Shown here: positions 1 through 14,940 of the stretch, one piece after another
Numbering within the stretch: the first letter of the stretch is position 1
Layout of the letters: each line of letters begins with the position of its first letter
Translations under genes and position numbers: made by a program
Notes under the pieces: model-generated
Told to the model about the DNA's origin: nothing
The model's database searches: none
What the model saw: the letters and a program-made list of their open reading frames with translations, nothing else
Virus record (IMG/VR): IMGVR_UViG_2875713109_000008
Location: 1 to 14,940 of that record
From: a virus
Lineage: Duplodnaviria; Heunggongvirae; Uroviricota; Caudoviricetes
Strand: one strand, 5' to 3'
DNA: 14,940 nt

Positions 1-735
1 TTACTCCCTGACAGGGTTCGTAGGCCACTCAATATCAGGTGCAGTTGTTGTATTAACACGGTTCAGCAACACCCGATACTTTTTCCAGGCTTCCAGCAAC
101 GAGTTTTCTTCCTCCGTTGCGATTTCCAGATCTGCAGCATCCTGAAGTGGCGCAATATGCTCACTGGCTACCTGCATCAGGTTGTTTTTTGTTTCTTCCG
201 CCTCCCGGATCCGGAACAGTTTTTCTGCTTCCGTATCCTTCACCCAGGCTGTGCCGTTCCACTTCTGATATTCCCCTTCCGGCGATAACCAGGTGACATT
301 TTCCGGTAACGAGCCAAGTTCAGAAATAAATAACGCGTCGCCGGAAGCCACGTCATAGACGGTTTTTCCCCGATGATCTTCAACGAGATGCCACGATGCC
401 TCATCACTGTTGAAAACAGCCACAAAGCCAGCCGGAATATCTGGCGGTGCAATATCGGTACTGTTTGCTGGCAGACCTGTATGAGGCGGAATATATGCGT
501 CACCTTCACCAATAAATTCATTAGTTCCGGCCAGCAGATTATAAATTTTTATGGTCCGTGGTTGTTCACTCATTCTGAATGCCANNNNNNNNNNNNNNNN
601 NNNNNCGGTACTGTTTGCTGGCAGACCTGTATGAGGCGGAATATATGCGTCACCTTCACCAATAAATTCATTAGTTCCGGCCAGCAGATTATAAATTTTT
701 ATGGTCCGTGGTTGTTCACTCATTCTGAATGCCAT
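1..735 (-). CDS. tfa: Tail fibre assembly protein Tfa (lambda orf-194 family); reading frame carries an in-frame 129-bp repeat plus 21 N
   Basis: Translation [43 protein letters not shown]... matches lambda Tfa from memory. ATG at 735-733 overlaps the stf stop (TAATG). Natural length is likely about 194 aa once the duplicated block is removed. Confidence 0.85.
456..734. repeat. 129-bp exact direct repeat (456-584 and 606-734) bridged by 21 N (585-605); period 150 bp
   Basis: Seen directly in the sequence; copies are identical and the unit keeps the tfa frame (X run in the translation). Confidence 0.9.
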
Positions 736-3700
736 TATGCAAGCCTCACAATATAGTTAAATGCGATGTTTTTGACGGTGTTTTCCGCGTTACCAGCAGC
801 GTTAACGGTGATGGTGTGTCCATGTGAACCAATCGCAACGGAGTGCGTATGAGCACCAATACCGACAGTATGCGCGTGTGCACCTGCAGATGCTGCTGTG
901 CNNNNNNNNNNNNNNNNNNNNNTGACGGTGTTTTCCGCGTTACCAGCAGCGTTAACGGTGATGGTGTGTCCATGTGAACCAATCGCAACGGAGTGCGTAT
1001 GAGCACCAATACCGACAGTATGCGCGTGTGCACCTGCAGATGCTGCTGTGCCGGACAGTGAGTGGCTATGATTACCATCTGTACTGGTATTAGCTAACCA
1101 CCCCGTAGACATACCTACTGAGCCTTGTACACCCCAGGTATTTTGACCTGAGCTTGTATAACCATATTGATAAGTATCTTTAAAAACACTGGGGTTAAAT
1201 CGACGGCCATCTCTATGGCTGTGATTACCAGCTGCATTCGTGCTGCCACTTAAACTATGGGTATGCGCACCAGTGTTATTCGTGGATTTAGTGCCGTAAT
1301 CAAACGACGATGTGGTTTTCGTCCCCAAATCCGTACTGGATGCGCTGGCGCTGTGGGTATGCGATTTAATGCCATCCTGTTCCTGAGACAATACGGCACG
1401 ACCACTGGCGGGCTTGCCCTTAATCGTCCAGCCACGCATATCAGGGATCACGCCTGACGGATAAGCGGCTGCAAGTTTCGGGTAAGCAGATTTGTCAAAA
1501 GTCTGCCCCTGCATCAGGGCATAACCAGACGGAACGGTATCTGATGGCCACGGGATTGGTGCGCCGACTGGGTAGCTTTCTGGTGGAAGATTTTTCGAGG
1601 TATAAACTTCTGCCCAGTCTTCCTCAAAACCATAACCGTCTCTTGAAGAACGGTAGAACAGACCACCATTTCTGTAATGCGCCTTCATCTGCAAGGTCCG
1701 GCAACTTCCGACTCCGGTATAGAAGTTAACCAGAATATAGCTGTCGCCAGAGCGGGTGACATTATAAGCGCCTGATTCGGCATTCCAGGGAACGCCACCA
1801 TCCGCATCGGCATATGTATCCGTTGCCCTTCTGGCAAAAGCAGCCACATGCGCGGCGGTTAAAGTAATATCTTTGGAACCATCAAACTCAACACCAGAAA
1901 CCCGTCTTGGCGTTTGCAGCTTTGTTGCTGTTAATGCATTACCGTTCAGACTTGCGGACAGTTTGGTTCCAATAACCAGTTCGCCGGTTGCGTTATCAAT
2001 AGCAAACGGTCTTAATGTATTCCAGCCACCATAAACATCACCTTGATTGGTAAGCAGCAGGTAAGTTTTAGCGCCATCATTACGCCATAATGCCCCATAC
2101 TCCCCACCTATCATTCGAATCTGATTACCACCACGCGCTACAATTTCGTCTGTGGCAAAAAGTTTTTTGCACGACAAGTTATCGTTAACGATTAACGAAT
2201 GAGACTCATAAAAACCACGCCCACTCTTAAAATCAAGGATAACGTCCGCCGCGATACATTCAGTCGCCGGATTTGTTGCCCCAAACTTATAGGTCGTATC
2301 ATTAACAACGAGATCAGCACCAGGTGTGGATATTGACAGGCCATCTTCGATAAACGCAAAAACAGGGAAAGCAGCGCCATCAACATAGAACACAGAGCGC
2401 AAATCATCGCCCTTATTACTCATCATTATTGAGTGGATGGCTCGTTCATTGTTTTGATATTGCCAGAACATTCCATAAGCATAACGCCCCCTGTCAGTCC
2501 AGCCACCAGGCATAACAAATCCGTTAAACTCGCAGTTATTCATCGGATCGCCTGCGGTTCGCGTTGCCGTGGTGATAATGACCCTTGATGCCAGTTCGCT
2601 TACTGAGCCAGCAGAACGCATAACAACAACAGGGTAATATTTTCCAGATGTTGCACCTGCAGGAGCGTTAACCCGCACATAACGCATACCACGCTTATCA
2701 GCAAAGTCTGTTTTACTGACCGCGTTAATGTTGTTCAGGAAGCGTCCCTTATCGGGTATATCAGCGCCGTTCTGGTCTTTCTGCAGACGTTTCTCTGCAT
2801 TGTCATAGGCTGATTTTACTGCCTTTGGCGTTGCCGCCAGCGTTTCAGACGTACTGTTGGTCGCACTGCTGAGCTGTACTATCCCCTTTTTCGTCGTACT
2901 TGCATCCTCAAGCGCCACGGCGGATGCAATATCCTCTGCCCGTTTTGCCGCTGTCTCGGCGCGCGTTGCCGCGGATTCCGCCGTACTTTTGCTCTGTGCT
3001 GCCGCCGTCGCACTGCCAGCTGCCTCTGTCGCCTTCGTGGATGCTGTCGTGGCGCTGCCCTTCGCTGCGGACGCTTGTCTGGTCGCCTCATCTTTTGAAG
3101 CAGACGCCGATGATGCCGATGACGCCGCCGAACTGGCGGACGATGCGGCAGCCGTTTTTGAGGATTCTGCGCTGGTTTCCGACGCTTTCGCGTTCGTCTC
3201 GGATGTCTTCGCTGCGGAAGCAGACCTCGCTGCTGCGCTGGCCTGTTCAGTGGCTTCGCCAGCCTTCGTTGTGGCTGTTGAAGCAGACGATGCGGCACTT
3301 TCTGCCGATTTTCCGGCGGCGGTGGCACTGGCTGAGGCCTGCCCGGCACTTGTTGACGCGGCACTGGCAGACGACGCAGCCGCTGTTTTTGAGCCTGCCG
3401 CAGCCGAGGCGCTCTGTCCCGCTGCCGTTTCAGAAGACCTGGCGTTTGTCTCAGACGTCTTTGCCGCCTTCGCGGAATTGCCTGCCGCCGTTGCCGAGGA
3501 AGCGGCACTACTGGCGCTTGATGATGCGTTCGTTTCTGATGATTTCGCTGCCTCTTTTGAGGCCGCCGCATCCCGGGCTGAGGTGGCTGCTTCTGACGCC
3601 TTCGTGGTCGCGGCGGATGCAGAAGTGGCTGCTGATTGTTGTGACGCTGCCGCATTCGTTTCTGACGTTTTCGCCGCAGCGGCACTGGTAGCTGCCGCGC

Positions 3701-4283
3701 TTTTTGAGGACTCTGCAGCAGCAGCACTTTTCGATGCTTCACTGGCCTTTGTTGATGCCGTTCCTGCGCTGGAAGATGCTGACTGAGCCGACGACGCGGC
3801 CTGTCCGGCTGACGTGCTGGCTGCGCGTGCTGAGCCTGCAGCATCGGTTGCATGAGTTGCCGCCTCACTGGCAGATGTGCTGGCATCACTGGCTGACTTC
3901 TTCGCGGCTGCCGTGTTCTGTGCCACTGCGGACGCGTTACGCGCCACCTCTTCCACCATCAGTTCAAAACGTCGCAATGCCTCCGGACGGGCATCATCCT
4001 CCGTCATGGCACCGAGAAAATCATTCAGCGTACCGGGTTGAGAATCTTCATACACGGTAATGGTCCCGGCATGTGACGGCGGGAATCCCTCCACCAACAG
4101 AATAACGCTGTACTGCCCGTACTCAACGTCCATGCTGTAACGCCCGGCTTCATCCGGATTTTCTGAGGCCAGCGTGTTCACCACCACCGTGGTGCTGTTA
4201 CGTTTTGCTTTCAGCTGGATTGTGCAGTTCTGTACCGGTTTTCCTGTGCCGTCTTTCAGTACACCTGAAATCTTTACTGCCAT
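735..4283 (-). CDS. stf: Side tail fibre protein Stf (lambda Stf-like N-terminus, long Ala/Ser/Thr-rich central region, His-rich HxH C-terminal repeats)
   Basis: N-terminus [30 protein letters not shown]... and C-terminus ...[12 protein letters not shown] match lambda Stf from memory. ATG at 4283 is preceded by GGGGTG; the ORF track starts at a GTG at 4289. Contains the second N-bridged repeat. Confidence 0.88.
773..1051. repeat. 129-bp exact direct repeat (773-901 and 923-1051) bridged by 21 N (902-922); period 150 bp
   Basis: Seen directly; same architecture as the repeat in tfa. It duplicates the His-rich segment near the Stf C-terminus. Confidence 0.9.
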
Positions 4284-4294
4284 ATTCACCCCAC

Positions 4295-4320
4295 AAAAAA
4301 GCCCGCCTGAACCGGCGGGC
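4295..4320 (-). terminator. Rho-independent terminator between lom and stf on the minus strand
   Basis: On the minus strand a GCCCGCC/GGCGGGC hairpin (6-nt loop) is followed by TTTTTT, just upstream of the stf ribosome-binding site. Confidence 0.55.
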
Positions 4321-4347
4321 TGTCATAACACTGTGTTACCTGGCTAA

Positions 4348-4693
4348 TCAGAATTTATAACCGACACCCACGATGAAACCGTCAGTGCGCCAGTCACCAC
4401 TGCCGGAGCCTTCATAAGCAATATCAATGGCCACGGATTCGGTCGGGTTAAACTGCACGCCAGCCCCCCACGCCAGAGACGTGTTGCTGTGGCGACCGTC
4501 ATCACTTCCGGTCAGCACATCGTGCTTTTTCCCCTTGTTGTCAGTTACGCGAAGATAATCCCCGGAGAAAGTCGACACACGGCTGTAAGCTACACCCGCC
4601 ATCGCATACGCGCTGAACCATTCATTCACGCGCACAGACGGCCCCGCCATTACGCTGAACCAGCGGTTACGAACGGAATCTTCATGCCAGCGG
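4348..4693 (-). pseudogene. lom: 5'-truncated lom (Ail/Lom/PagC-family outer-membrane protein); only about the C-terminal 115 codons remain
   Basis: Translation ...RWHEDSVRNRWFSVMAGPSVRVNEWFSAYAMAGVAYSRV...GFIVGVGYKF matches the Lom C-terminus from memory. The frame stays open upstream but runs into cos-like sequence at about 4693, with no signal peptide or plausible start. Confidence 0.8.
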
Positions 4694-4890
4694 GTAACCT
4701 GTCGGATCGCCGGAAAGGACCCGCAAAATGATAATAATTATCATCTACATGTCACAACGTGCATCTACGCCATCAAACCACGTCAAATAATCAATTATGA
4801 CGCAGGTATCGTATTAATTGATCTGCATCAACTTAACGTAAAAACAACTTCAGACAATACAAATCAGCGACACTGAATACGGGGCAACCT
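4694..4890. other. Lambda right-end (cos-proximal) homologous region, reverse-complemented; homology stops at the cosN right terminus
   Basis: Minus strand reads ...GATCCGACAGGTTAC then lom sequence. Lambda's right end is recalled as ...GATCCGACAGGTTACG, and the downstream window sequence is collinear with the lambda right arm through bor. Confidence 0.6.
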
Positions 4891-4891
4891 C

Positions 4892-5086
4892 ATGTCAACG
4901 AAGAACAGAACCCGCAGAACAACAACCCGCAACATCCGCTTTCCTAACCAAATGATTGAACAAATTAACATCGCTCTTGAGCAAAAAGGGTCCGGGAATT
5001 TCTCAGCCTGGGTCATTGAAGCCTGCCGTCGGAGACTAACGTCAGAAAAGAGAGCATATACATCAATTAAAAGTGATGAAGAATGA
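4892..5086 (+). CDS. Small basic hypothetical protein (64 aa; Arg/Thr-rich N-terminus), conserved lambda right-end ORF (recalled as YlcI/DUF3950-like)
   Basis: ORF MSTKNRTRRTTTRNIRFPNQ... with a GGGG-rich region upstream of the ATG; position matches the lambda/DLP12 right-end gene set. Confidence 0.5.
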   Translation: MSTKNRTRRTTTRNIRFPNQMIEQINIALEQKGSGNFSAWVIEACRRRLTSEKRAYTSIKSDEE

Positions 5087-5250
5087 ACATCCCGCGTTCT
5101 TCCCTCCGAACAGGACGATATTGTAAATTCACTTAATTACGAGGGCATTGCAGTAATTGAGTTGCAGTTTTACCACTTTCCTGACAGTGACAGACTGCGT
5201 GTTGGCTCTGTCACAGGCTAAATAGTTTGAATGATTAGCAGTTATGGTGA

Positions 5251-5457
5251 TCAGTCAACCACCAGGGAATAATCCTTCATATTATTATCGTGCTTCACCA
5301 ACGCTGCCTCAATTGCTCTGAATGCTTCCAGAGACACCTTATGTTCTATACATGCAATTACAACATCAGGGTAACTCATAGAAATGGTGCTATTAAGCAT
5401 ATTTTTTACACGAATCAGATCCACGGAGGGATCATCAGCAGATTGTTCTTTATTCAT
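5251..5457 (-). CDS. Hypothetical protein, 68 aa (lambda p79 / YbcW-like)
   Basis: ORF of 68 aa at the position and size expected for the conserved small gene between bor and cos in lambda-like phages. Confidence 0.55.
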
Positions 5458-5742
5458 TTTGTCGCTCCATGCGCTTGCTCTTCATCTAGCGGTTAAAATA
5501 TTACTTCAAATCTTTCTGTATGAAGATTTGAGCACGTTGGCCTTACATACATCTGTCGGTTGTATTTCCCTCCAGAATGCCAGCAGGACCGCACTTTGTT
5601 ACGCAACCAATACTATTAAGTGAAAACATTCCTAATATTTGACATAAATCATCAACAAAACACAAAGAGGTCAGACCAGATTGAAACGATAAAAACGATA
5701 ATGCAAACTACGCGCCCTCGTATCACATGGAAGGTTTTACCA

Positions 5743-6153
5743 ATGGCTCAGGTTGCCATTTTTAAAGAAATATTCGATCAAGTGCGAAAAGATTTAAACT
5801 GTGAATTGTTTTATTCTGAACTAAAACGTCACAACGTCTCACATTATATTTACTATCTAGCCACAGATAATATTCACATCGTGTTAGAAAACGATAACAC
5901 CGTGTTAATAAAAGGACTTAAAAAGGTTGTAAATGTTAAATTCTCAAGAAACACGCATCTTATAGAAACGTCCTATGATAGGTTGAAATCAAGAGAAATC
6001 ACATTTCAGCAATACAGGGAAAATCTTGCTAAAGCAGGAGTTTTCCGATGGGTTACAAATATCCATGAACATAAAAGATATTACTATACCTTTGATAATT
6101 CATTACTATTTACTGAGAGCATTCAGAACACTACACAAATCTTTCCACGCTAA
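5743..6153 (+). CDS. Hypothetical protein (lambda p78 / YbcV-like); the longest ORF starts at a GTG at 5620
   Basis: ATG at 5743 is preceded by GGAAGG at suitable spacing and gives 136 aa; the 177-aa ORF from 5620 has no ribosome-binding site. Confidence 0.55.
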
Positions 6154-6443
6154 ATCATAACGTCCGGTTTCTTCCGTGTCAGCACCGGGGCGTTGGCATA
6201 ATGCAATACGTGTACGCGCTAAACCCTGTGTGCATCGTTTTTAATTATTCCCGGACACTCCCGCAGAGAAGTTCCCCGTCAGGGCTGTGGACATAGTTAA
6301 TCCGGGAATACAATGACGATTCATCGCACCTGACATACATTAATAAATATTAACAATATGAAATTTCAACTCATTGTTTAGGGTTTGTTTAATTTTCTAC
6401 ACATACGATTCTGCGAACTTCAAAAAGCATCGGGAATAACACC

Positions 6444-6737
6444 ATGAAAAAAATGCTACTCGCTACTGCGCTGGCCCTGCTTATTACAGGATGTGCTCAA
6501 CAGACGTTTACTGTTCAAAACAAACCGGCAGCAGTAGCACCAAAGGAAACCATCACCCATCATTTCTTCGTTTCTGGAATTGGGCAGAAGAAAACTGTCG
6601 ATGCAGCCAAAATTTGTGGCGGCGCAGAAAATGTTGTTAAAACAGAAACCCAGCAAACATTCGTAAATGGATTGCTCGGTTTTATTACTTTAGGCATTTA
6701 TACTCCGCTGGAAGCGCGTGTGTATTGCTCACAATAA
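6444..6737 (+). CDS. bor: Bor lipoprotein (serum-resistance-associated outer-membrane lipoprotein)
   Basis: 97 aa with lipobox LLITGC; MKKMLLATALALLITGCAQQTFTVQNKPAAVAPKE... matches lambda Bor from memory. Convergent with Rz as in lambda. Confidence 0.93.
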   Translation: MKKMLLATALALLITGCAQQTFTVQNKPAAVAPKETITHHFFVSGIGQKKTVDAAKICGGAENVVKTETQQTFVNGLLGFITLGIYTPLEARVYCSQ

Positions 6738-6827: not shown

Positions 6828-7144
6828 TCAGCCTCTCTCTGAGGGTGAAATAATCCCGTTCAGCGGTGTCTGCCAGTCGGGGGGAGGCTGCATTATCCAC
6901 GCCGGAGGCGGTGGTGGCTTCACGCACTGACTGACAGACTGCTTTGATGTGCAACCGACGACGACCAGCGGCAACATCATCACGCAGAGCCGTTCAGCGG
7001 TGTCTGCCAGTCGGGGGGAGGCTGCATTATCCACGCCGGAGGCGGTGGTGGCTTCACGCACTGACTGACAGACTGCTTTGATGTGCAACCGACGACGACC
7101 AGCGGCAACATCATCACGCAGAGCATCATTTTCAGCTTTAGCAT
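6828..7144 (-). pseudogene. Rz1: Rz1 o-spanin lipoprotein embedded in Rz; native frame is also broken by the 134-bp duplication
   Basis: Rz1 start MLKLKMM... is encoded at 7144-7124 and the Rz1 C-terminus ...[10 protein letters not shown] ends at 6828. The extra 134 bp (not a multiple of 3) separates them in frame. Confidence 0.6.
6857..7124. repeat. 134-bp exact tandem direct duplication (6857-6990 and 6991-7124), no N spacer
   Basis: Seen directly; the two copies are identical and adjoin head to tail inside Rz/Rz1. Confidence 0.9.
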
Positions 7145-8140: not shown

Positions 8141-9193
8141 TTATTTCCCCACCAGCTCGTTTATCTCTTTCACTGTCTGGTTAAACCGCTCTGACTCAAG
8201 CTCAACACCTAAGGCCCGACGCCCCAGCGCCATTGCTGCTTTTATTGTGGAACCGGATCCCATAAAAAAATCAGCAACCAGATCACCAGGTCGACTACTG
8301 GCATTGATTATTTGCCTGAGCATATCCGCCGGTTTCTCACACGGATGTTTACCCGGGTAGAACTGAACGGGTTTATGCATCCAGACATCGGTATAAGGCA
8401 CGGAGACTGATACGGAGAAATAGCGCCGGAGAGATTTAAACTCATCCAGCAATTCAGAATATTTGCGATTCAGTGAATCATAAGATGCCACCAGCTGGTG
8501 GTGTGGTTGTTCCAGTTGTTGTTCCTGAAACTTCTCTGCCGCTATACGGGAAAACAGTGCCTGTAACTTCCGATAGTCAGCCTCATTCGGCAACTGCCAC
8601 TGACTGGCACCAAACCAGTGGGAAACCATATTTTTCTTACCTGTGGCTTCGGCAATTTGTTTTGCCGTTATACCCAGTTCGGCACGAGCATCCCTGAAAT
8701 ACGATATCAGCGGTGCCATTATGTGCTGTTTGAGTTCCCTTTCTTTTGCCGCATAGCCGTCACTTTTGCCGCGATATGGCCCCTGGTAATGTTCAGCAAA
8801 CAGAACGCGCTCTGTGGCAGGAAAATATGCGCGCAGACTTTCTTTATTACACCCATTCCAACGTCCGGACGGCTTCGCCCAGATGATATGGTTAAGCACG
8901 TTGAAACGTTCACGCATCATGATCTCAATATCAGATGCCAGGCGATGCCCACAGAACAGGTAAAGGCTTCCGGCAGGTTTCAACACCCGCCAGAACTGGG
9001 CCAGACAGTGGTCCAGCCACTTAAGGTAATCTTCGTCCCCTTTCCACTGATTGTCCCAACCGTTGGGTTTCACCTTGAAGTACGGCGGATCGGTAACAAT
9101 CAGGTCAATGGAATCATCAGGCAGGGACTGAATAAAATGCAGGCAATCAGCGTTGATTAAATCAACACTGTTTATTTTTACAGTATTTTTCAT
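8141..9193 (-). CDS. DNA methyltransferase, beta-class N6-adenine/N4-cytosine type (motif IV DPPY precedes motif I FxGxG); no restriction partner visible
   Basis: 350 aa with VTDPPYF near the N-terminus and FFMGSGST near the C-terminus. The start at 9193 has no clear ribosome-binding site. Confidence 0.82.
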
Positions 9194-9342
9194 GGATCAG
9201 TAAGCGTAACTCTGGTAGGCTCACTCTGCTTTTGCGCTAAAGCAGTGGGCCGTGGTTCGCTTGTGACCAGTAAGCATGAGCGAATGGCTGGCAGGTGCTA
9301 CCAACACCCACCAGCCGCCCATTTTCACAAATTAAAAGTCCT

Positions 9343-9561
9343 TCATAGCTGAAGGCGTCTGTAACAGCCGAACTGGTAATCTGCCAGCCCCGCCATAACC
9401 AACTGGGTCAGTATTAACTGACAGCGTTCGCGTGAAAGATATGTGTTTTGTGCAATCTCCCCGACTGTTGCCGGTTCGATGCTTAATTCATTAAAAACAA
9501 CTTTCGCCGTTTCTGTCATATCTTGCTGTTTTAACATGTCTTTTTTCCTTCTGGTTAACAT
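9343..9561 (-). CDS. Small hypothetical protein (72 aa), possibly helix-turn-helix-like
   Basis: ORF only; segment ATVGEIAQNTYLSRERCQLILTQLVMAGL resembles a DNA-binding helix pair. No clear ribosome-binding site, so start is uncertain. Confidence 0.35.
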   Translation of the reverse strand: MLTRRKKDMLKQQDMTETAKVVFNELSIEPATVGEIAQNTYLSRERCQLILTQLVMAGLADYQFGCYRRLQL

Positions 9562-9658
9562 GACATACCAATAACTCTTGTCTAAAAAGCCAGCAAGATA
9601 AAAAGTCAGTATTCACGACCACCAGCGTGTTTACCGTACTGCACCAGGTTTACAGGTA

Positions 9659-9950: not shown

Positions 9951-11402
9951 ATGTCAGACATAAAAAATATACTAAAATGCATGTACTTTGATAAAAATAG
10001 ATACTCAAACTTTGGCTCCGTAATTAAAAGTCTAGAGATAAATGGATTTCGAGGAATAAAAAAACTAACATTAAATATAAATTTTCCGGTAACTGCAATA
10101 TCAGGGCTAAACGGCGCTGGGAAAAGCACTCTTGGGCAGTTAGCAATATGCGCATATAAAAAACCAGTTACAGCCCGTGAATATAAGAGATTATATATTA
10201 AAGATTTTTTCCCTGTATCTAAAGCCGATCCAGCCCCTTTCGATAATGACGCCAGTGTCATTTATAAATATGAAACAAATGATTCAACGAAAACACAAGA
10301 TGTGACTGTCACTCGCATAAAGTCTTCTTGGTCTGGATATAAAAGACAACCAGAAAGACACTGTTTTTACATTGGTTTTACTGTCTATATTCCAAAAGTA
10401 GAACGTAGAGATATAAGTGTTTATGGCGGTAAAGACTTTGATTTAACAGAGAGAAGAAGCGTCGACCATTCAGTAATATTGAAGATGGCAAAAATAATAG
10501 GTCATCCATATGATGATATCGCATTCCAAGGAATTTCTCATAGAGCACGTCGTTCAGAAATTGGTATTGTTGAAAGACTTGGGTATTCTTATTCTGAAAA
10601 TAACATGGGGTTTGGCGAAGGAAGAGTTCTTTATACGGTTGATATGCTTGAAACAGCTCCAGAGCAAAGTCTTTTCGTACTAGAAGAACCAGAAACATCT
10701 CTTCATGAAAGCGCACAGTATGAATTTGCAAAATATTTAATGGAAGTATGTCAACGTAGAAAACATCAAATAATATTATCAACACACTCAAGTGTGATAT
10801 TAAATGCTTTACCTCCTGATGCACGAAAATTACTTATTAGAGATCAGACTGGTGTCTATATCAAAGATGGAATTTCAACAACTCATGTGAGATCAATACT
10901 GTCTGATGGGCAGTTTAAAGGGCTGCATATTTGCGTAGAAGACCAGTTTGCAAAAGTTTTACTTAGTGAAGTAATTAGAGCAAAGCGGAGAGACATTCTT
11001 AAATCCATTCAAATCACTGATATTGGAGATAAAGATGCAGTCCGACAAGCAGTCGAGGTATTCAAGAAAGCAGGCCTTAATGTTATTGCCGTAAGAGATG
11101 CAGATGTTGGAGAAAACATTAAAGATGATTTATTTTCTTTCCCTGGCAATAGGCCACCAGAAGTAGAAGTATTTCAACATGAGGAAGTAAAAAAATTCCT
11201 CTACAAGGAGTATCATATTGATTTTGATTGGTTAATAAAAAAGGAAGGGATTAGTGATCATCACAATTACACTCAAGCAATTGCTAAAGAAGCAGAATGT
11301 GAGGAGGAAGTAATTAGAACTTTAGCAATTAAAAAATATATTGAAATTATTGATGAGAAATTTGACCCACTTATTACAAATATAGTAAGCAAAATAAAAT
11401 AA
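9951..11402 (+). CDS. OLD-family-like protein: N-terminal ABC-type ATPase fused to C-terminal TOPRIM-like domain; candidate defence or superinfection-exclusion nuclease
   Basis: 483 aa. Walker A GLNGAGKST (nt 10104-10130), Walker B LFVLEEPETSLH (from nt 10671), H-loop ILSTHSS, then ICVEDQ (Glu) and IAVRDADVGE (DxD) TOPRIM-like motifs. AGGAAA ribosome-binding site before ATG. Opposite strand to the flanking phage genes and much more AT-rich than them. Confidence 0.6.
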   Translation: MSDIKNILKCMYFDKNRYSNFGSVIKSLEINGFRGIKKLTLNINFPVTAISGLNGAGKSTLGQLAICAYKKPVTAREYKRLYIKDFFPVSKADPAPFDNDASVIYKYETNDSTKTQDVTVTRIKSSWSGYKRQPERHCFYIGFTVYIPKVERRDISVYGGKDFDLTERRSVDHSVILKMAKIIGHPYDDIAFQGISHRARRSEIGIVERLGYSYSENNMGFGEGRVLYTVDMLETAPEQSLFVLEEPETSLHESAQYEFAKYLMEVCQRRKHQIILSTHSSVILNALPPDARKLLIRDQTGVYIKDGISTTHVRSILSDGQFKGLHICVEDQFAKVLLSEVIRAKRRDILKSIQITDIGDKDAVRQAVEVFKKAGLNVIAVRDADVGENIKDDLFSFPGNRPPEVEVFQHEEVKKFLYKEYHIDFDWLIKKEGISDHHNYTQAIAKEAECEEEVIRTLAIKKYIEIIDEKFDPLITNIVSKIK

Positions 11403-11574: not shown

Positions 11575-11946
11575 CTAGATATTTGAGTCCATTTCCAATT
11601 CTATTTCTAACATTATCAACATACCTTCAATGATGCCTTCTGCCTTTTGCAATAAGCGCCCAACCCAGCAATCAGAACGCCCATGTTTACGGGCAAGCGC
11701 CATAAACGTCATACCACCTACATAATAATCTACTAATAAATCGTGCAAATCGCTGTTGTTCTTTTTCAGACGGGCCATGCACCCGCAAATGATCATCGCG
11801 TCATCGTCACAACATTGCGGGCGGGATTTTACTTTTGAAGGAAGTAATCCCTTAAAACCGGCAGCAATGGACGACCAGGTCACATCCTCATGATTATTAG
11901 CCGCCCATGCCCCCCAACGTTCAAGAACCATTTGAATATCACGCAT
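11575..11946 (-). CDS. Q: Late-gene antiterminator Q, phage 21/82 (QuuD-like) family
   Basis: [62 protein letters not shown]... with a cysteine-rich zinc-binding-like motif. GGAGG ribosome-binding site before ATG at 11946; an alternative upstream ATG at 11961 has none. Confidence 0.8.
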
Positions 11947-12091
11947 CAACTTCCTCCACAAAATCAGGCCAGCACGCCTATTGCCAACACACGGTCGATA
12001 AAACGAAATATCAGCTCCAGCTGGGAGCCATACTTCTCTTCAAATGCCACGGTATCCATTTTTCAACAATGTCACAGCAAGAGGTGAAATA

Positions 12092-12442
12092 ATGGAGCCA
12101 TACAGCCTCACACTCGATGAGGCCTGTCATTTTCTCAAGATATCCAGACCGACTGCCATTAACTGGATACGCACAGGGCGTCTTCAGGCAACACGCAAAG
12201 ATCCCACTAAGAATAAATCTCCTTACCTCACAACACGACAAGCCTGCATTGCGGCTCTTCAGTCTCCGCTGCATACTGTCCAGGTGAGCGCGGGTGATGG
12301 CATAACAGAGGAAAGAAAATGTCACTCTTCCGCAGAGGTGAAATATGGTACGCCAGTTTCACATTGCCGAACGGTAAAAGATTTAAACAGTCTCTTGGAA
12401 CAAAGGACAAAAGGCAGGCGACAGAACTCCATGACAAGCTAA
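12092..12442 (+). CDS. xis: Excisionase Xis, P22 type (116 aa)
   Basis: [38 protein letters not shown]... with GAGGTG ribosome-binding site; overlaps int by 124 bp. Confidence 0.8.
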
Positions 12443-13482
12443 AGGCTGAAGCATGGCGGGTCAGCAAACTTGGTGAAATACCTGATATAACGTTCGAGGA
12501 AGCGTGTGTCAGGTGGCTTGAAGAGAAAGCACATAAAAAATCACTGGACGATGACAAAAGCCGGATCGGATTCTGGCTTCAACATTTCGCAGGAATGCAA
12601 CTAAGAGACATTACTGAATCAAAAATTTATTCAGCAATGCAGAAAATGACGAACCGGCGTCATGAGGAAAACTGGAGACTCAGGGCAGAAGCATGCAGAA
12701 AAAAAGGGAAACCTGTTCCAGAATACACGCCAAAACCAGCGTCCGTTGCAACGAAGGCTACGCATCTTTCATTTATAAAGGCCCTACTAAGAGCCGCAGA
12801 GCGTGAATGGAAAATGCTGGATAAGGCACCAATTATTAAAGTGCCTCAACCAAAGAATAAACGGATCCGCTGGCTGGAGCCCCATGAAGCACAAAGGCTG
12901 ATTGATGAATGTCCGGAGCCATTAAAGTCTGTTGTTGAATTTGCACTGGCAACAGGCTTAAGACGCTCGAACATCATCAACCTTGAATGGCAACAAATAG
13001 ACATGCAGCGCCGGGTGGCATGGATAAACCCGGAAGAGAGTAAATCAAACCGCGCAATTGGCGTTGCGCTGAATGATACTGCATGTCGCGTTTTGAAAAA
13101 ACAAATCGGGAATCATCACCGTTGGGTATTTGTGTACAAGGAAAGCTGTACCAAACCAGACGGAACGAAAGCGCCAACAGTAAGGAAGATGCGGTATGAC
13201 GCAAACACAGCCTGGAAAGCGGCGCTGAGACGGGCTGGTATTGATGATTTCAGATTTCACGACTTGAGACACACCTGGGCAAGTTGGCTGGTTCAAGCCG
13301 GAGTCCCGTTGTCAGTGTTACAGGAAATGGGAGGCTGGGAGTCTATCGAAATGGTTCGTCGATATGCTCACCTTGCACCTAATCACCTTACCGAACACGC
13401 ACGGCAAATAGACTCGATCCTGAACCCATCGGTCCCAAATTTGTCCCAGTCAAAAAATAAGGAAGGTACTAATGATGTGTAA
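12319..13482 (+). CDS. int: Tyrosine integrase, P22 Int type (thrW-specific)
   Basis: 387 aa, [48 protein letters not shown]... with C-terminal catalytic region [10 protein letters not shown]...VRRYAHL; ends 14 nt from the tRNA-Thr 3' end. Confidence 0.95.
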
Positions 13483-13496
13483 CTTATTGATTTTAA

Positions 13497-13572
13497 TGGT
13501 GCCGATAATAGGAGTCGAACCTACGACCTTCGCATTACGAATGCGCTGCTCTACCAACTGAGCTATATCGGC
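13497..13572 (-). tRNA. thrW: tRNA-Thr (anticodon CGU)
   Basis: Minus strand GCCGATATAGCTCAGTTGGTAGAGCAGCGCATTCGTAATGCGAAGGTCGTAGGTTCGACTCCTATTATCGGCACCA folds as a cloverleaf with CGT in the anticodon loop and a CCA end. Confidence 0.9.
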
Positions 13573-13686: not shown

Positions 13687-14940
13687 TTACGCACGAATGG
13701 TGTAATCACCAATGCCGATCCACTTGTAAGTGGTCAGTGCTTCCAGCCCCATTGGGCCACGCGCGTGGAGTTTTTGTGTGCTTACCGCCACTTCCGCACC
13801 CAGACCAAACTGGCCGCCGTCGGTAAAACGCGTAGAGGCGTTAACGTAAACAGCGGACGAATCCACTTCGTTAACAAAACGCTGGGCGTTGCGCATATCG
13901 CGGGTCAGGATCGCATCGGAGTGTTGTGTGCCGTGTTCACGAATATGGGCGATGGCATCGTCAAGATCGCTGACGATTTTGACGTTCAAATCTAATGACA
14001 GAAACTCATCGTCATACTCTTCGGCTTTAACAGCAACCACCTTCGCAGGGCCTGCCTGCAACTGCGCCAGTGCAGCTGCATCTGCGTGTAATGTCACGCC
14101 GCTTTCCGCCATTTGTTTGCTTAATGCGGGCAGGAAGCTATCGGCGATGTTTTTATTCACCAGCAACGTTTCAACCGTATTACATGTGCTCGGACGCTGA
14201 GTTTTCGCGTTGACGATCACTTTTAATGCTTCAGCGATCTCTACACTTTCATCAACGTAAATATGGCATACGCCTATACCACCTGTGATCACCGGGATTG
14301 TCGACTGTTCACGGCACAGTTTATGCAAACCAGCGCCACCACGCGGGATCAGCATGTCGATGTATTTATCCATACGCAGCATTTCACTGACCAGCGCACG
14401 GTCAGGATTATCAATCGCCTGCACGGCACCCGCCGGTAAGCCGCAGGATTTCAGGGCGTCCTGAATCACCGCCACCGTTGCAGCGTTAGTGCGACACGTT
14501 TCTTTGCCACCGCGCAGGATCACCGCATTACCGGTTTTCAGGCACAGCGAAGCGACATCAACCGTCACGTTCGGGCGCGCTTCATAAATCACGCCAATAA
14601 CCCCCAGCGGTACGCGACGACGCTCAAGACGCAGGCCGCTGTCCAGTACGCTGCCATCGATTACCTGCCCCACCGGATCGGCGAGGTTACACACCTGGCG
14701 CACATCATCGGCAATGCCTTTCAGCCGTGCGGGCGTCAGTGCCAGACGGTCAAGCATCGCTTCGCCAAGGCCATTGGCACGCGCGTCAGCAACATCCTGG
14801 GCGTTAGCGTTGAGGATGATTTCGCTTTGTGCTTCCAGTTCATCGGCGATTTTTTCCAGCACGCGATTTTTTTCGCGGCTGGAGAGTTGCGCTAATTTAT
14901 ACGAGGCTTGCTTCGCGGCAATGCCCATTTGTTCCAGCAT
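13687..14940 (-). CDS. proA: Gamma-glutamyl phosphate reductase (proline biosynthesis)
   Basis: Complete 417-aa [53 protein letters not shown]...; aldehyde dehydrogenase-like fold; start codon at the window's last base. Confidence 0.96.

What the first reader, a model, noticed from the sequence alone, without database searches (positions are those of the whole stretch)
4348..4740. Morphogenesis-region deletion with one breakpoint at the cos right terminus, fused into the middle of lom
Homology to the lambda right arm (bor, two small ORFs, right-end sequence) runs without interruption to ...GATCCGACAGGTTAC on the minus strand, which is where I recall mature lambda DNA ending. The next base begins the interior of lom. 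Everything from Nu1/A through J and the 5' half of lom is therefore missing, and the breakpoint coincides within a base or so with the terminase nick site. That placement suggests the deletion began with in situ cos cleavage of the prophage, followed by loss of the left-end side and end joining, rather than random illegitimate recombination.
Basis: partly seen in the sequence, partly recalled or inferred. Interest (0 to 1): 0.6.

Follow-up and report, generated by a model that had tools for sequence, protein, structure and literature searches.

The report
Prophage deletion scar at cos terminus
A decayed lambda-like prophage next to the thrW tRNA gene has lost about 19 kb of head and tail genes, and one edge of the deletion lies 1-4 bases from where the phage's own packaging enzyme cuts DNA, so this is probably, though not provably, a healed terminase cut.

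Summary
On the minus strand, homology to the lambda right arm (bor, ybcV, ybcW, ylcI, right end) runs to ...GATCCGACAGGTTAC. That corresponds to lambda base 48501 of 48502. Homology to the interior of lom starts within the same three bases, so TAC (window 4694-4696) is a 3-bp microhomology. The terminal G, the 12-nt cohesive end, cosB and about 19.2 kb (Nu1 to mid-lom) are absent.

The junction is real. It is identical in three other assemblies of the same thrW remnant that differ elsewhere. It is also rare: none of 5,426 complete E. coli genomes has it.

If the lom breakpoint is taken as fixed, about 300 of 22,400 possible left breakpoints would give 3 nt or more of microhomology. Landing on the cos terminus by chance is therefore roughly a 0.3% event.

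I favour a terminase-made end joined by E. coli microhomology end joining (confidence about 0.5). Three points weaken this:
- The right end is the nuclease-exposed end in known lambda biology, yet here it is the preserved one.
- No second cos-terminus scar was found.

This is a neat molecular fossil, not a new system.

The parts
4348..4696 (-). 3' fragment of a lom (Ail/Lom outer-membrane protein) gene. The 100-aa ORF at 4348-4650 plus 46 nt of in-frame lom sequence upstream. It has no start codon or signal peptide of its own, so it is a pseudogene.
   Evidence: 99.5% identical to Lom of PhiR34_1. Translation. PF06316 Ail_Lom is recorded for the identical 100-aa product.
4694..4696 (.). The deletion junction. 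GTA on the + strand (TAC on the - strand) is shared by both parents, a 3-bp microhomology.
   Evidence: Ungapped three-way alignment with an intact lom phage and an intact cos phage.
4694..4891 (-). Right terminus of a lambda-type genome, ending one base short of the mature 3' end of the l strand. It keeps the cosQ-like heptamer (AGGACCC on the + strand, 4716-4722; the identity of cosQ is from memory). It lacks the 12-nt cohesive-end sequence and cosB.
   Evidence: Matches J02459 to base 48501 of 48502. Intact relatives continue with CGGGGCGGCGACCT.
4892..6737 (.). Right-arm accessory genes, contiguous with the terminus: ylcI (4892-5086 +), ybcW (5251-5457 -), ybcV/DUF1398 (5620-6153 +), bor (6444-6737 +).
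   Evidence: Annotation of the homologous stretches in PhiR26_1 and NCTC9040. Pfam results.
1..4289 (-). Side tail fibre stf (735-4289) and tail-fibre assembly tfa (1-735), the genes that normally follow lom. Both ORFs are inflated by two assembly-gap duplications.
   Evidence: Pfam phage_tail_N, Gp34_trimer, Collar and Caudo_TAP. N runs and 129-bp duplicates.
11575..13572 (.). The other end of the remnant: Q antiterminator (11575-11961 -) abutting an xis-like HTH gene (12044-12442 +), integrase (12319-13482 +) and tRNA-Thr thrW (13497-13572 -). The whole early region is also deleted.
   Evidence: Pfam, ARAGORN, and comparison with the thrW prophage of strain OXA-181.

Best explanation
This is the scar of a terminase-made DNA end.

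Proposed sequence of events (inferred):
1. In an ancestor, the integrated and non-excising lambda-like prophage at thrW was nicked or cut at cosN. The terminase came either from the prophage itself or from a co-resident lambdoid phage with the same cos.
2. That left the l strand ending ...GGTTACG-3'OH.
3. The 5' overhang of the other strand was removed and the terminal G was trimmed.
4. The 3' end paired through TAC with single-stranded DNA inside lom, 19.2 kb downstream.
5. Synthesis and ligation, by E. coli's Ku-independent microhomology end joining or by microhomology-primed synthesis at a fork collapsed on the nick, sealed the chromosome.

The product lacks cosN and cosB, so it can never be cut again, and it has lost all head and tail-shaft genes.

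What is shown: the exact junction, the 3-bp overlap, what is missing, and that the junction is inherited in a lineage. What is inferred: that terminase made the end, and which repair pathway sealed it.
For: - The right-arm homology ends at lambda 48501 of 48502, within 1-4 nt of the l-strand nick.
- The same right end in a thrW prophage with a 99% identical integrase continues into intact cos and Nu1 (L006). So do PhiR26_1 and the sampled genomes carrying the identical ylcI protein. The ancestor therefore had a normal cos at this point.
- 115 of 120 sampled natural lom alleles read ACAG(C/T)GATA(C/T) before the junction. The other five lack the motif, and none reads GGTTAC. The microhomology is therefore only 2-3 nt, and the GGT upstream of it came from cos.
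- Chance estimate: 297 of 22,438 candidate left breakpoints give 3 nt or more of microhomology, and only about 4 of 22,438 lie that close to the nick.
- The junction is 100% identical in L019, L266 and L270, which differ from the window and from each other by other indels. It is therefore real and older than their divergence.
- E. coli native end joining gives 1-3 nt (model: 1-9 nt) of microhomology at every repaired break (10.1101/605246).
- Terminase makes staggered nicks at cosN (PMC4856287).
Against: - In known lambda biology the left end is protected in Complex I, and the right, cosQ-bearing end is the nuclease-sensitive one (PMC4856287). Here the right end is almost untouched and the left side lost 19 kb.
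- Four correctly oriented Chi sites lie only 3.4-4.9 kb inside the right end. Normal RecBCD processing would have removed ylcI to Rz, so RecBCD did not process this end in the usual way.
- Terminase genes are transcribed with the lysis genes (my knowledge), so a cell expressing them fully should die. Only leaky or trans expression would leave survivors.
- No independent second example was found in IMG/VR at either nick.
- The lom breakpoint is shared with deletions that have nothing to do with cos.
- The finding was picked post hoc because of the coincidence.
Confidence: 0.5

Rival explanations
1. Ordinary illegitimate recombination between two TAC trinucleotides, by replication slippage, template switching or repair of an unrelated break. 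It happens to lie beside cosN, and terminase played no part.
For: - Deletions removing Nu1...J or lom are common in this phage family and mostly have other breakpoints. Examples are Nu1 codon ~13 joined to the lom 3' end with cos retained (NCTC9040); Nu1 codon 159 joined to lom, and the Rz start joined to lom; J joined to lom; and others.
- The lom position is a recurrent breakpoint whatever the partner. The event may therefore have been driven from the lom side.
- Only 3 bp of homology are needed.
- The coincidence was noticed post hoc.
- No second cos-terminus scar was found.
Against: With the lom end fixed, about 1 in 300 microhomology-compatible partners, or about 4 in 22,438 positions, would fall this close to the nick. 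That remains only a few per cent after counting the roughly 9 junction types examined. cosN is the one place in the prophage where a site-specific enzyme makes an end.
Confidence: 0.35
2. The end came from an infecting, already packaged linear phage genome rather than from in situ cleavage. Its mature right terminus joined illegitimately to lom of a resident prophage, and a homologous crossover in the shared right arm completed the replacement.
For: It gives the same product and the same terminus. Right arms and lom-stf modules are shared at 95-99% identity among many lambdoid phages, so homology for the second crossover was available. The right end is the first DNA to enter the cell (my knowledge).
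Against: It needs two events instead of one. An injected genome normally cyclises through its cohesive ends. Nothing in the flanks marks a recombinant tract: the window is 99.1% identical to PhiR26_1 from the junction to 6990, but that is uninformative either way.
Confidence: 0.08
3. Assembly artefact: two contigs from different lambdoid prophages were mis-joined.
For: The window is a draft scaffold with artefacts. Two 21-N gaps are flanked by exact 129-bp duplicates. A perfect 134-bp tandem duplication is absent from relatives. Lom and right-end sequences are multi-copy in E. coli genomes.
Against: The junction has no Ns and no k-mer-sized overlap. It is identical in a 4.74-Mb contig (L266), a 226-kb contig (L270) and an IMG isolate contig (L019). 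These are separate assemblies that differ from the window elsewhere.
Confidence: 0.02

Closest known systems
Cryptic lambdoid prophages of E. coli that have lost morphogenesis genes (for example DLP12 with nohD-aaaD'-tfaD', Qin, Rac with lomR; from my knowledge of K-12)
   Same: An integrated lambda-like element reduced by large internal deletions. It keeps lysis genes, bor, ylcI, ybcV, ybcW and tail-fibre genes. Analogous deletions were seen here in NCTC9040, OXA-181, L263 and L264.
   Different: Those remnants keep cos and at least part of Nu1 or A, or else break elsewhere. Here the breakpoint is at the cos terminus itself, and cosN and cosB are gone.
E. coli alternative (Ku-independent) end joining, A-EJ
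   Same: Short microhomology at the joint (3 nt here, 1-3 or 1-9 nt reported), no inserted bases, and a large deletion (10.1101/605246).
   Different: A-EJ is described as needing RecBCD resection of the ends. Here one end lost at most 4 nt plus its overhang while the other lost 19 kb. Pathway dependence cannot be read from sequence.
Terminase cleavage of cos in unexcised prophage or chromosomal DNA (lambda doc particles; lethality of terminase in rec- cells with cryptic cos sites; both from memory and not found in the searchable library)
   Same: It provides the only site-specific break in a lambdoid prophage, at exactly the position where this homology stops.
   Different: Those are laboratory observations of cleavage and packaging. 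A fixed natural deletion scar at the nick is something I did not find described. That is a negative result from a limited library.

Membership tests
Lambda-type cos right terminus | Sequence colinear with the lambda right arm up to the mature 3' end of the l strand (J02459 base 48502) | tested here: met
   The match runs to 48501; the last base differs.
Lambda-type cos right terminus | A functional cos: the 12-bp cohesive-end sequence GGGCGGCGACCT and the cosB/Nu1 side adjacent | tested here: not met
   Absent from the window. The next bases are lom. Intact relatives have it.
Ail/Lom outer-membrane protein gene | Full-length ORF with signal peptide and eight-strand barrel | tested here: not met
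   Only the C-terminal 100 codons plus 15 more in-frame codons of lom remain, with stop codons further upstream in the right-end sequence. PF06316 hits the fragment.
Microhomology-mediated end-joining scar | 1-9 nt shared by both parental sequences at the joint, with no filler DNA | tested here: met
   TAC is shared, and there are no extra bases. Natural lom alleles confirm GATAC/GATAT at the site.
Microhomology-mediated end-joining scar | Dependence on RecBCD and LigA | not testable with these tools
   This needs genetics. The near-intact right end argues against classical RecBCD resection of that end.
Terminase-initiated (in situ cos cleavage) deletion | Breakpoint at one of the two cosN nicks | tested here: met
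   It lies 1-4 nt inside the l-strand nick. The chance estimate is about 0.3%.
Terminase-initiated (in situ cos cleavage) deletion | Recurrence: independent scars at the nick positions in other prophages | tested here: not met
   IMG/VR scans for all four end configurations found only L019, which is the same lineage, plus natural cos variants. The metagenome and genome-collection scans were uninformative.
Terminase-initiated (in situ cos cleavage) deletion | A terminase of matching specificity present in the cell at the time | not testable with these tools
   Nu1 and A were removed by the deletion itself. The rest of the genome is not available.

The most novel reading that the evidence does not exclude
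Natural populations carry healed terminase cuts. A locked-in lambdoid prophage was cleaved at cos in the chromosome, and the cell survived by joining the cos 3' end to a microhomology 19 kb away. One step thus removed all virion genes and the cos site. If so, prophage domestication can be self-inflicted by the packaging enzyme. The recurrent breakpoints in lom would then mark a preferred acceptor site.
Probability: 0.45. Interest if true: 0.45.

Novelty: new variant of a known kind. Interest (0 to 1): 0.3.

Why it matters
Large deletions are how prophages become cryptic, but what starts them is usually unknowable. A breakpoint at the exact terminase nick would be a rare case where the initiating lesion can be read from the scar. 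It would show that cos cleavage of unexcised prophages happens and is survived in nature, and that it immunises the remnant against later cutting by related terminases. It also gives a concrete and cheap hypothesis to test by pan-genome census or by expressing terminase in a strain with a locked-in prophage. If the coincidence is chance, this is an ordinary decay deletion.

Tried and rejected
1. Exact junction 30-mer against one genome per species: no hit.
2. The pattern GATCCGACAGGTTACNH against metagenome and genome collections was too short. Both capped scans were wasted.
3. IMG/VR scans for scars at the filled-in right end, the left end with overhang, and the recessed left end returned SNP or homopolymer variants and natural alternative cohesive-end sequences. 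One apparent junction (L378) belongs to an unrelated phage type.
4. Ten contexts of the identical ylcI protein: every one in which I located the right-end 15-mer (five of the six checked) keeps an intact cos, including the one with a nearby deletion (L382).
5. A hairpin as the cause of the lom hot spot: the DNA fold is no better than shuffles, z = -0.08.
6. Chi as a barrier defining the lom breakpoint: there is no Chi in the retained lom or stf. I did not scan the deleted half of lom.
7. In vitro origin. The junctions create GGTTACC (BstEII) and GGTACC (KpnI) sites, but neither parent sequence has the site, so restriction and ligation is excluded by inspection.
8. Literature searches for a described cos-terminus deletion scar, or for terminase lethality through cryptic cos sites, found nothing specific.

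Full report
**What the window is.** The window is a draft scaffold of an E. coli-type chromosome. It carries a heavily reduced lambda-like prophage at thrW.
- proA lies at 13687-14940 (-), tRNA-Thr(CGU) at 13497-13572, and an integrase at 12319-13482.
- An xis-like gene and Q abut each other, so the whole early region is gone.
- Next come an AAA ATPase gene, a DNA methylase, S, R, Rz, bor, ybcV, ybcW and ylcI.
- Then come the phage right end, the 3' half of lom, stf and tfa.
- No complete RefSeq E. coli genome matches more than about half of the window in one place.

**Checking the observation.** BLAST of 4300-5100 against phage records gives two abutting pieces. Window 4694-5100 matches the lambda right end, J02459 48095-48501, at 97.8%, and PhiR26_1 at 99.3%. 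Window 4300-4702 matches Lom genes at 99.3-99.5%.
- J02459 begins with the cohesive end GGGCGGCGACCT and ends ...GGTTACG. The right-arm match therefore stops one base before the mature 3' end of the l strand.
- In an ungapped three-way alignment with an intact-lom phage (PhiR34_1) and an intact-cos phage (PhiR26_1), lom identity runs to 4696 and right-end identity starts at 4694.
- The minus strand reads GATCCGACAGGTTAC|CCGCTGGCATG. The parents read GGTTACG|GGGCGG and GCGATAC|CCGCTGG, so TAC is shared.
- The crossover therefore lies 1-4 nt inside the nick.
- The terminal G, the 12-nt cohesive sequence, cosB and 19,243 bp are missing, measured in PhiR26_1 from cos through Nu1, A ... J and the first 251-254 bp of the 600-bp lom gene.
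- The lom remnant has no start codon or signal peptide.

**Is the junction real?** The scaffold has artefacts. Two 21-N gaps are flanked by exact 129-bp duplicates at 456-734 and 773-1051. A perfect 134-bp tandem duplication lies at 6856-7124 and is absent from relatives. I therefore checked the junction independently.
- The identical junction, embedded in 100% identical sequence, occurs in an IMG isolate contig (L019), a 4.74-Mb contig of GCA_963281235.1 (L266) and a 226-kb contig of GCA_050474305.1 (L270).
- These three differ from the window and from each other by other deletions and insertions. The junction is therefore genuine and older than their divergence.
- It is rare. None of 5,426 complete E. 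coli genomes has it, and neither does the one-genome-per-species collection.

**Ancestral state.** A thrW prophage with a 99% identical integrase region (strain OXA-181) has the same right end continuing into an intact cos, Nu1 and a truncated A. Its match to the window begins at exactly 4694. In the sampled genomes carrying the identical ylcI protein, every copy in which I located the right-end 15-mer has an intact cos. Of 120 sampled lom loci, 115 read ACAG(C/T)GATA(C/T) before the junction. The other five lack the motif and none reads GGTTAC. The GGT before TAC therefore came from cos, and the microhomology was only 2-3 nt.

**How surprising is the coincidence?** I used PhiR26_1 as a stand-in for the ancestor and held the lom breakpoint fixed. 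That gives 22,438 candidate left breakpoints between the S gene and lom, of which 297 give 3 nt or more of microhomology. Falling on the one at the cos terminus is about a 0.3% event. Without the microhomology requirement, lying within 4 nt of the nick is about 0.02%. I examined roughly nine distinct junction types, so a family-wise figure of a few per cent is fair.

**Mechanism.** The favoured reading is a terminase-generated l-strand 3' end. It lost its last base, paired through TAC inside lom, and was sealed by E. coli's Ku-independent end joining. Terminase's staggered nicking at cosN is established (PMC4856287). A variant I consider at least as likely is a single-strand nick at cosN turned into a one-ended break by a replication fork, followed by microhomology-primed synthesis. 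That would explain why the join is at the recessed 3'-OH rather than at the tip of the 12-nt overhang. All of this is inference.

**Evidence against, or unexplained.**
- After cos cleavage the left end is held in Complex I and protected, while the right, cosQ-bearing end is open to nucleases (PMC4856287). The scar shows the opposite asymmetry.
- The window has five Chi sites where 0.41 are expected. Four lie on the minus strand at 8149-9626, oriented to be read by RecBCD entering from the cos right end (the orientation rule is from my knowledge). Classical processing would have removed 3.4 kb or more of the right arm, which is still present.
- Four IMG/VR scans, designed to catch scars at each of the four possible end configurations, recovered only the same lineage, natural cos variants and one false lead.
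- The lom side is not random. The same position is the breakpoint of a ybcW-homologue::lom junction in a Rac/Qin-like prophage (L267, ATGGGTTACCC|GCTGG) and of a J::lom junction (L272, GCCGGTA|CCCGCTGG). Both are absent from complete RefSeq genomes.
- A second position about 40 nt upstream is shared by Nu1::lom and Rz::lom junctions.
- The L267 type could be a secondary ~0.7-kb deletion from a window-type junction between 7-8-bp repeats. GGGTAAC occurs at 4692 and 5369. The J::lom junction cannot be explained that way.
- The stretch between the two positions is a natural hypervariable cassette of lom with two allele classes.
- No stable hairpin is predicted there.
- An unbiased sample of 120 lom loci gave only two further junctions, at other positions.

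I cannot explain the recurrence. It suggests the lom site is a preferred acceptor or break site in its own right.

**Rivals.**
- Chance microhomology deletion: 0.35.
- The end came from an injected, already mature phage genome, plus a homologous crossover: 0.08.
- Mis-assembly: 0.02, contradicted by the independent assemblies.

**Comparison and novelty.** Deletions that strip Nu1...J from lambdoid prophages are commonplace. They were seen here with many other breakpoints, including one that keeps cos and 13 codons of Nu1 (NCTC9040). What is unusual is a breakpoint at the cos terminus itself. I found no description of such a natural scar in the searchable literature, which is a limited negative. 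I rate it a new variant of a known kind: a prophage decay deletion, here plausibly started by terminase. Interest is modest.

Noticed in passing
window 585-605 and 902-922, with 456-584 = 606-734 and 773-901 = 923-1051: Two runs of 21 N are each flanked by exact 129-bp duplicates. These are unmerged contig overlaps in a draft scaffold. They inflate tfa (244 aa instead of ~194) and stf (1184 aa instead of ~1134). The relative L019 has single copies.
   Followed up: yes
window 6856-7124: A perfect 134-bp tandem duplication (2.0 copies, 100% identical) inside Rz/Rz1. It shifts the frame and creates a 182-aa ORF that hits both the Rz and Rz1 Pfam families. It is absent from L019, L266 and L270. 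It is probably another assembly artefact, though a real recent duplication is not excluded.
   Followed up: partly
lom, at the positions equivalent to window 4693-4697 and about 40 nt further upstream in intact alleles (L004, L263, L264, L267, L272): Independent deletions with unrelated left partners (cos end, ybcW homologue, J; and Nu1, Rz) share two lom-side breakpoints to within 1-2 bp. The two positions bracket a natural hypervariable cassette of lom. No hairpin or Chi explains it.
   Followed up: partly
window 8149-9626: There are five Chi octamers (GCTGGTGG) in 1.5 kb, against 0.41 expected for the whole window. Four are on the minus strand, the orientation read by RecBCD entering from the cos right end. 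They lie in and just beyond the DNA methylase gene.
   Followed up: no
window 9951-11402 (+): A 483-aa ATPase (Pfam AAA_15, AAA_21, DUF2813; OLD/AbiEii-like) sits between Q and the methylase, so it is a candidate anti-phage defence gene. The sister assembly L266 has different DNA here. The OXA-181 thrW prophage carries Avs2 at its far end.
   Followed up: no
window 11575-12442: Q antiterminator and the xis-like gene are about 80 bp apart. A second large deletion has therefore removed the whole immunity, replication and nin region of the prophage. Its order relative to the cos::lom deletion is unknown.
   Followed up: no
L007 (E. coli NCTC9040) 3050-3300: A related prophage has a parallel deletion. 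It keeps cos and the first ~13 codons of Nu1 and joins them to the last few codons of lom. Loss of the virion genes with retention of the right arm and stf-tfa has therefore happened more than once.
   Followed up: partly
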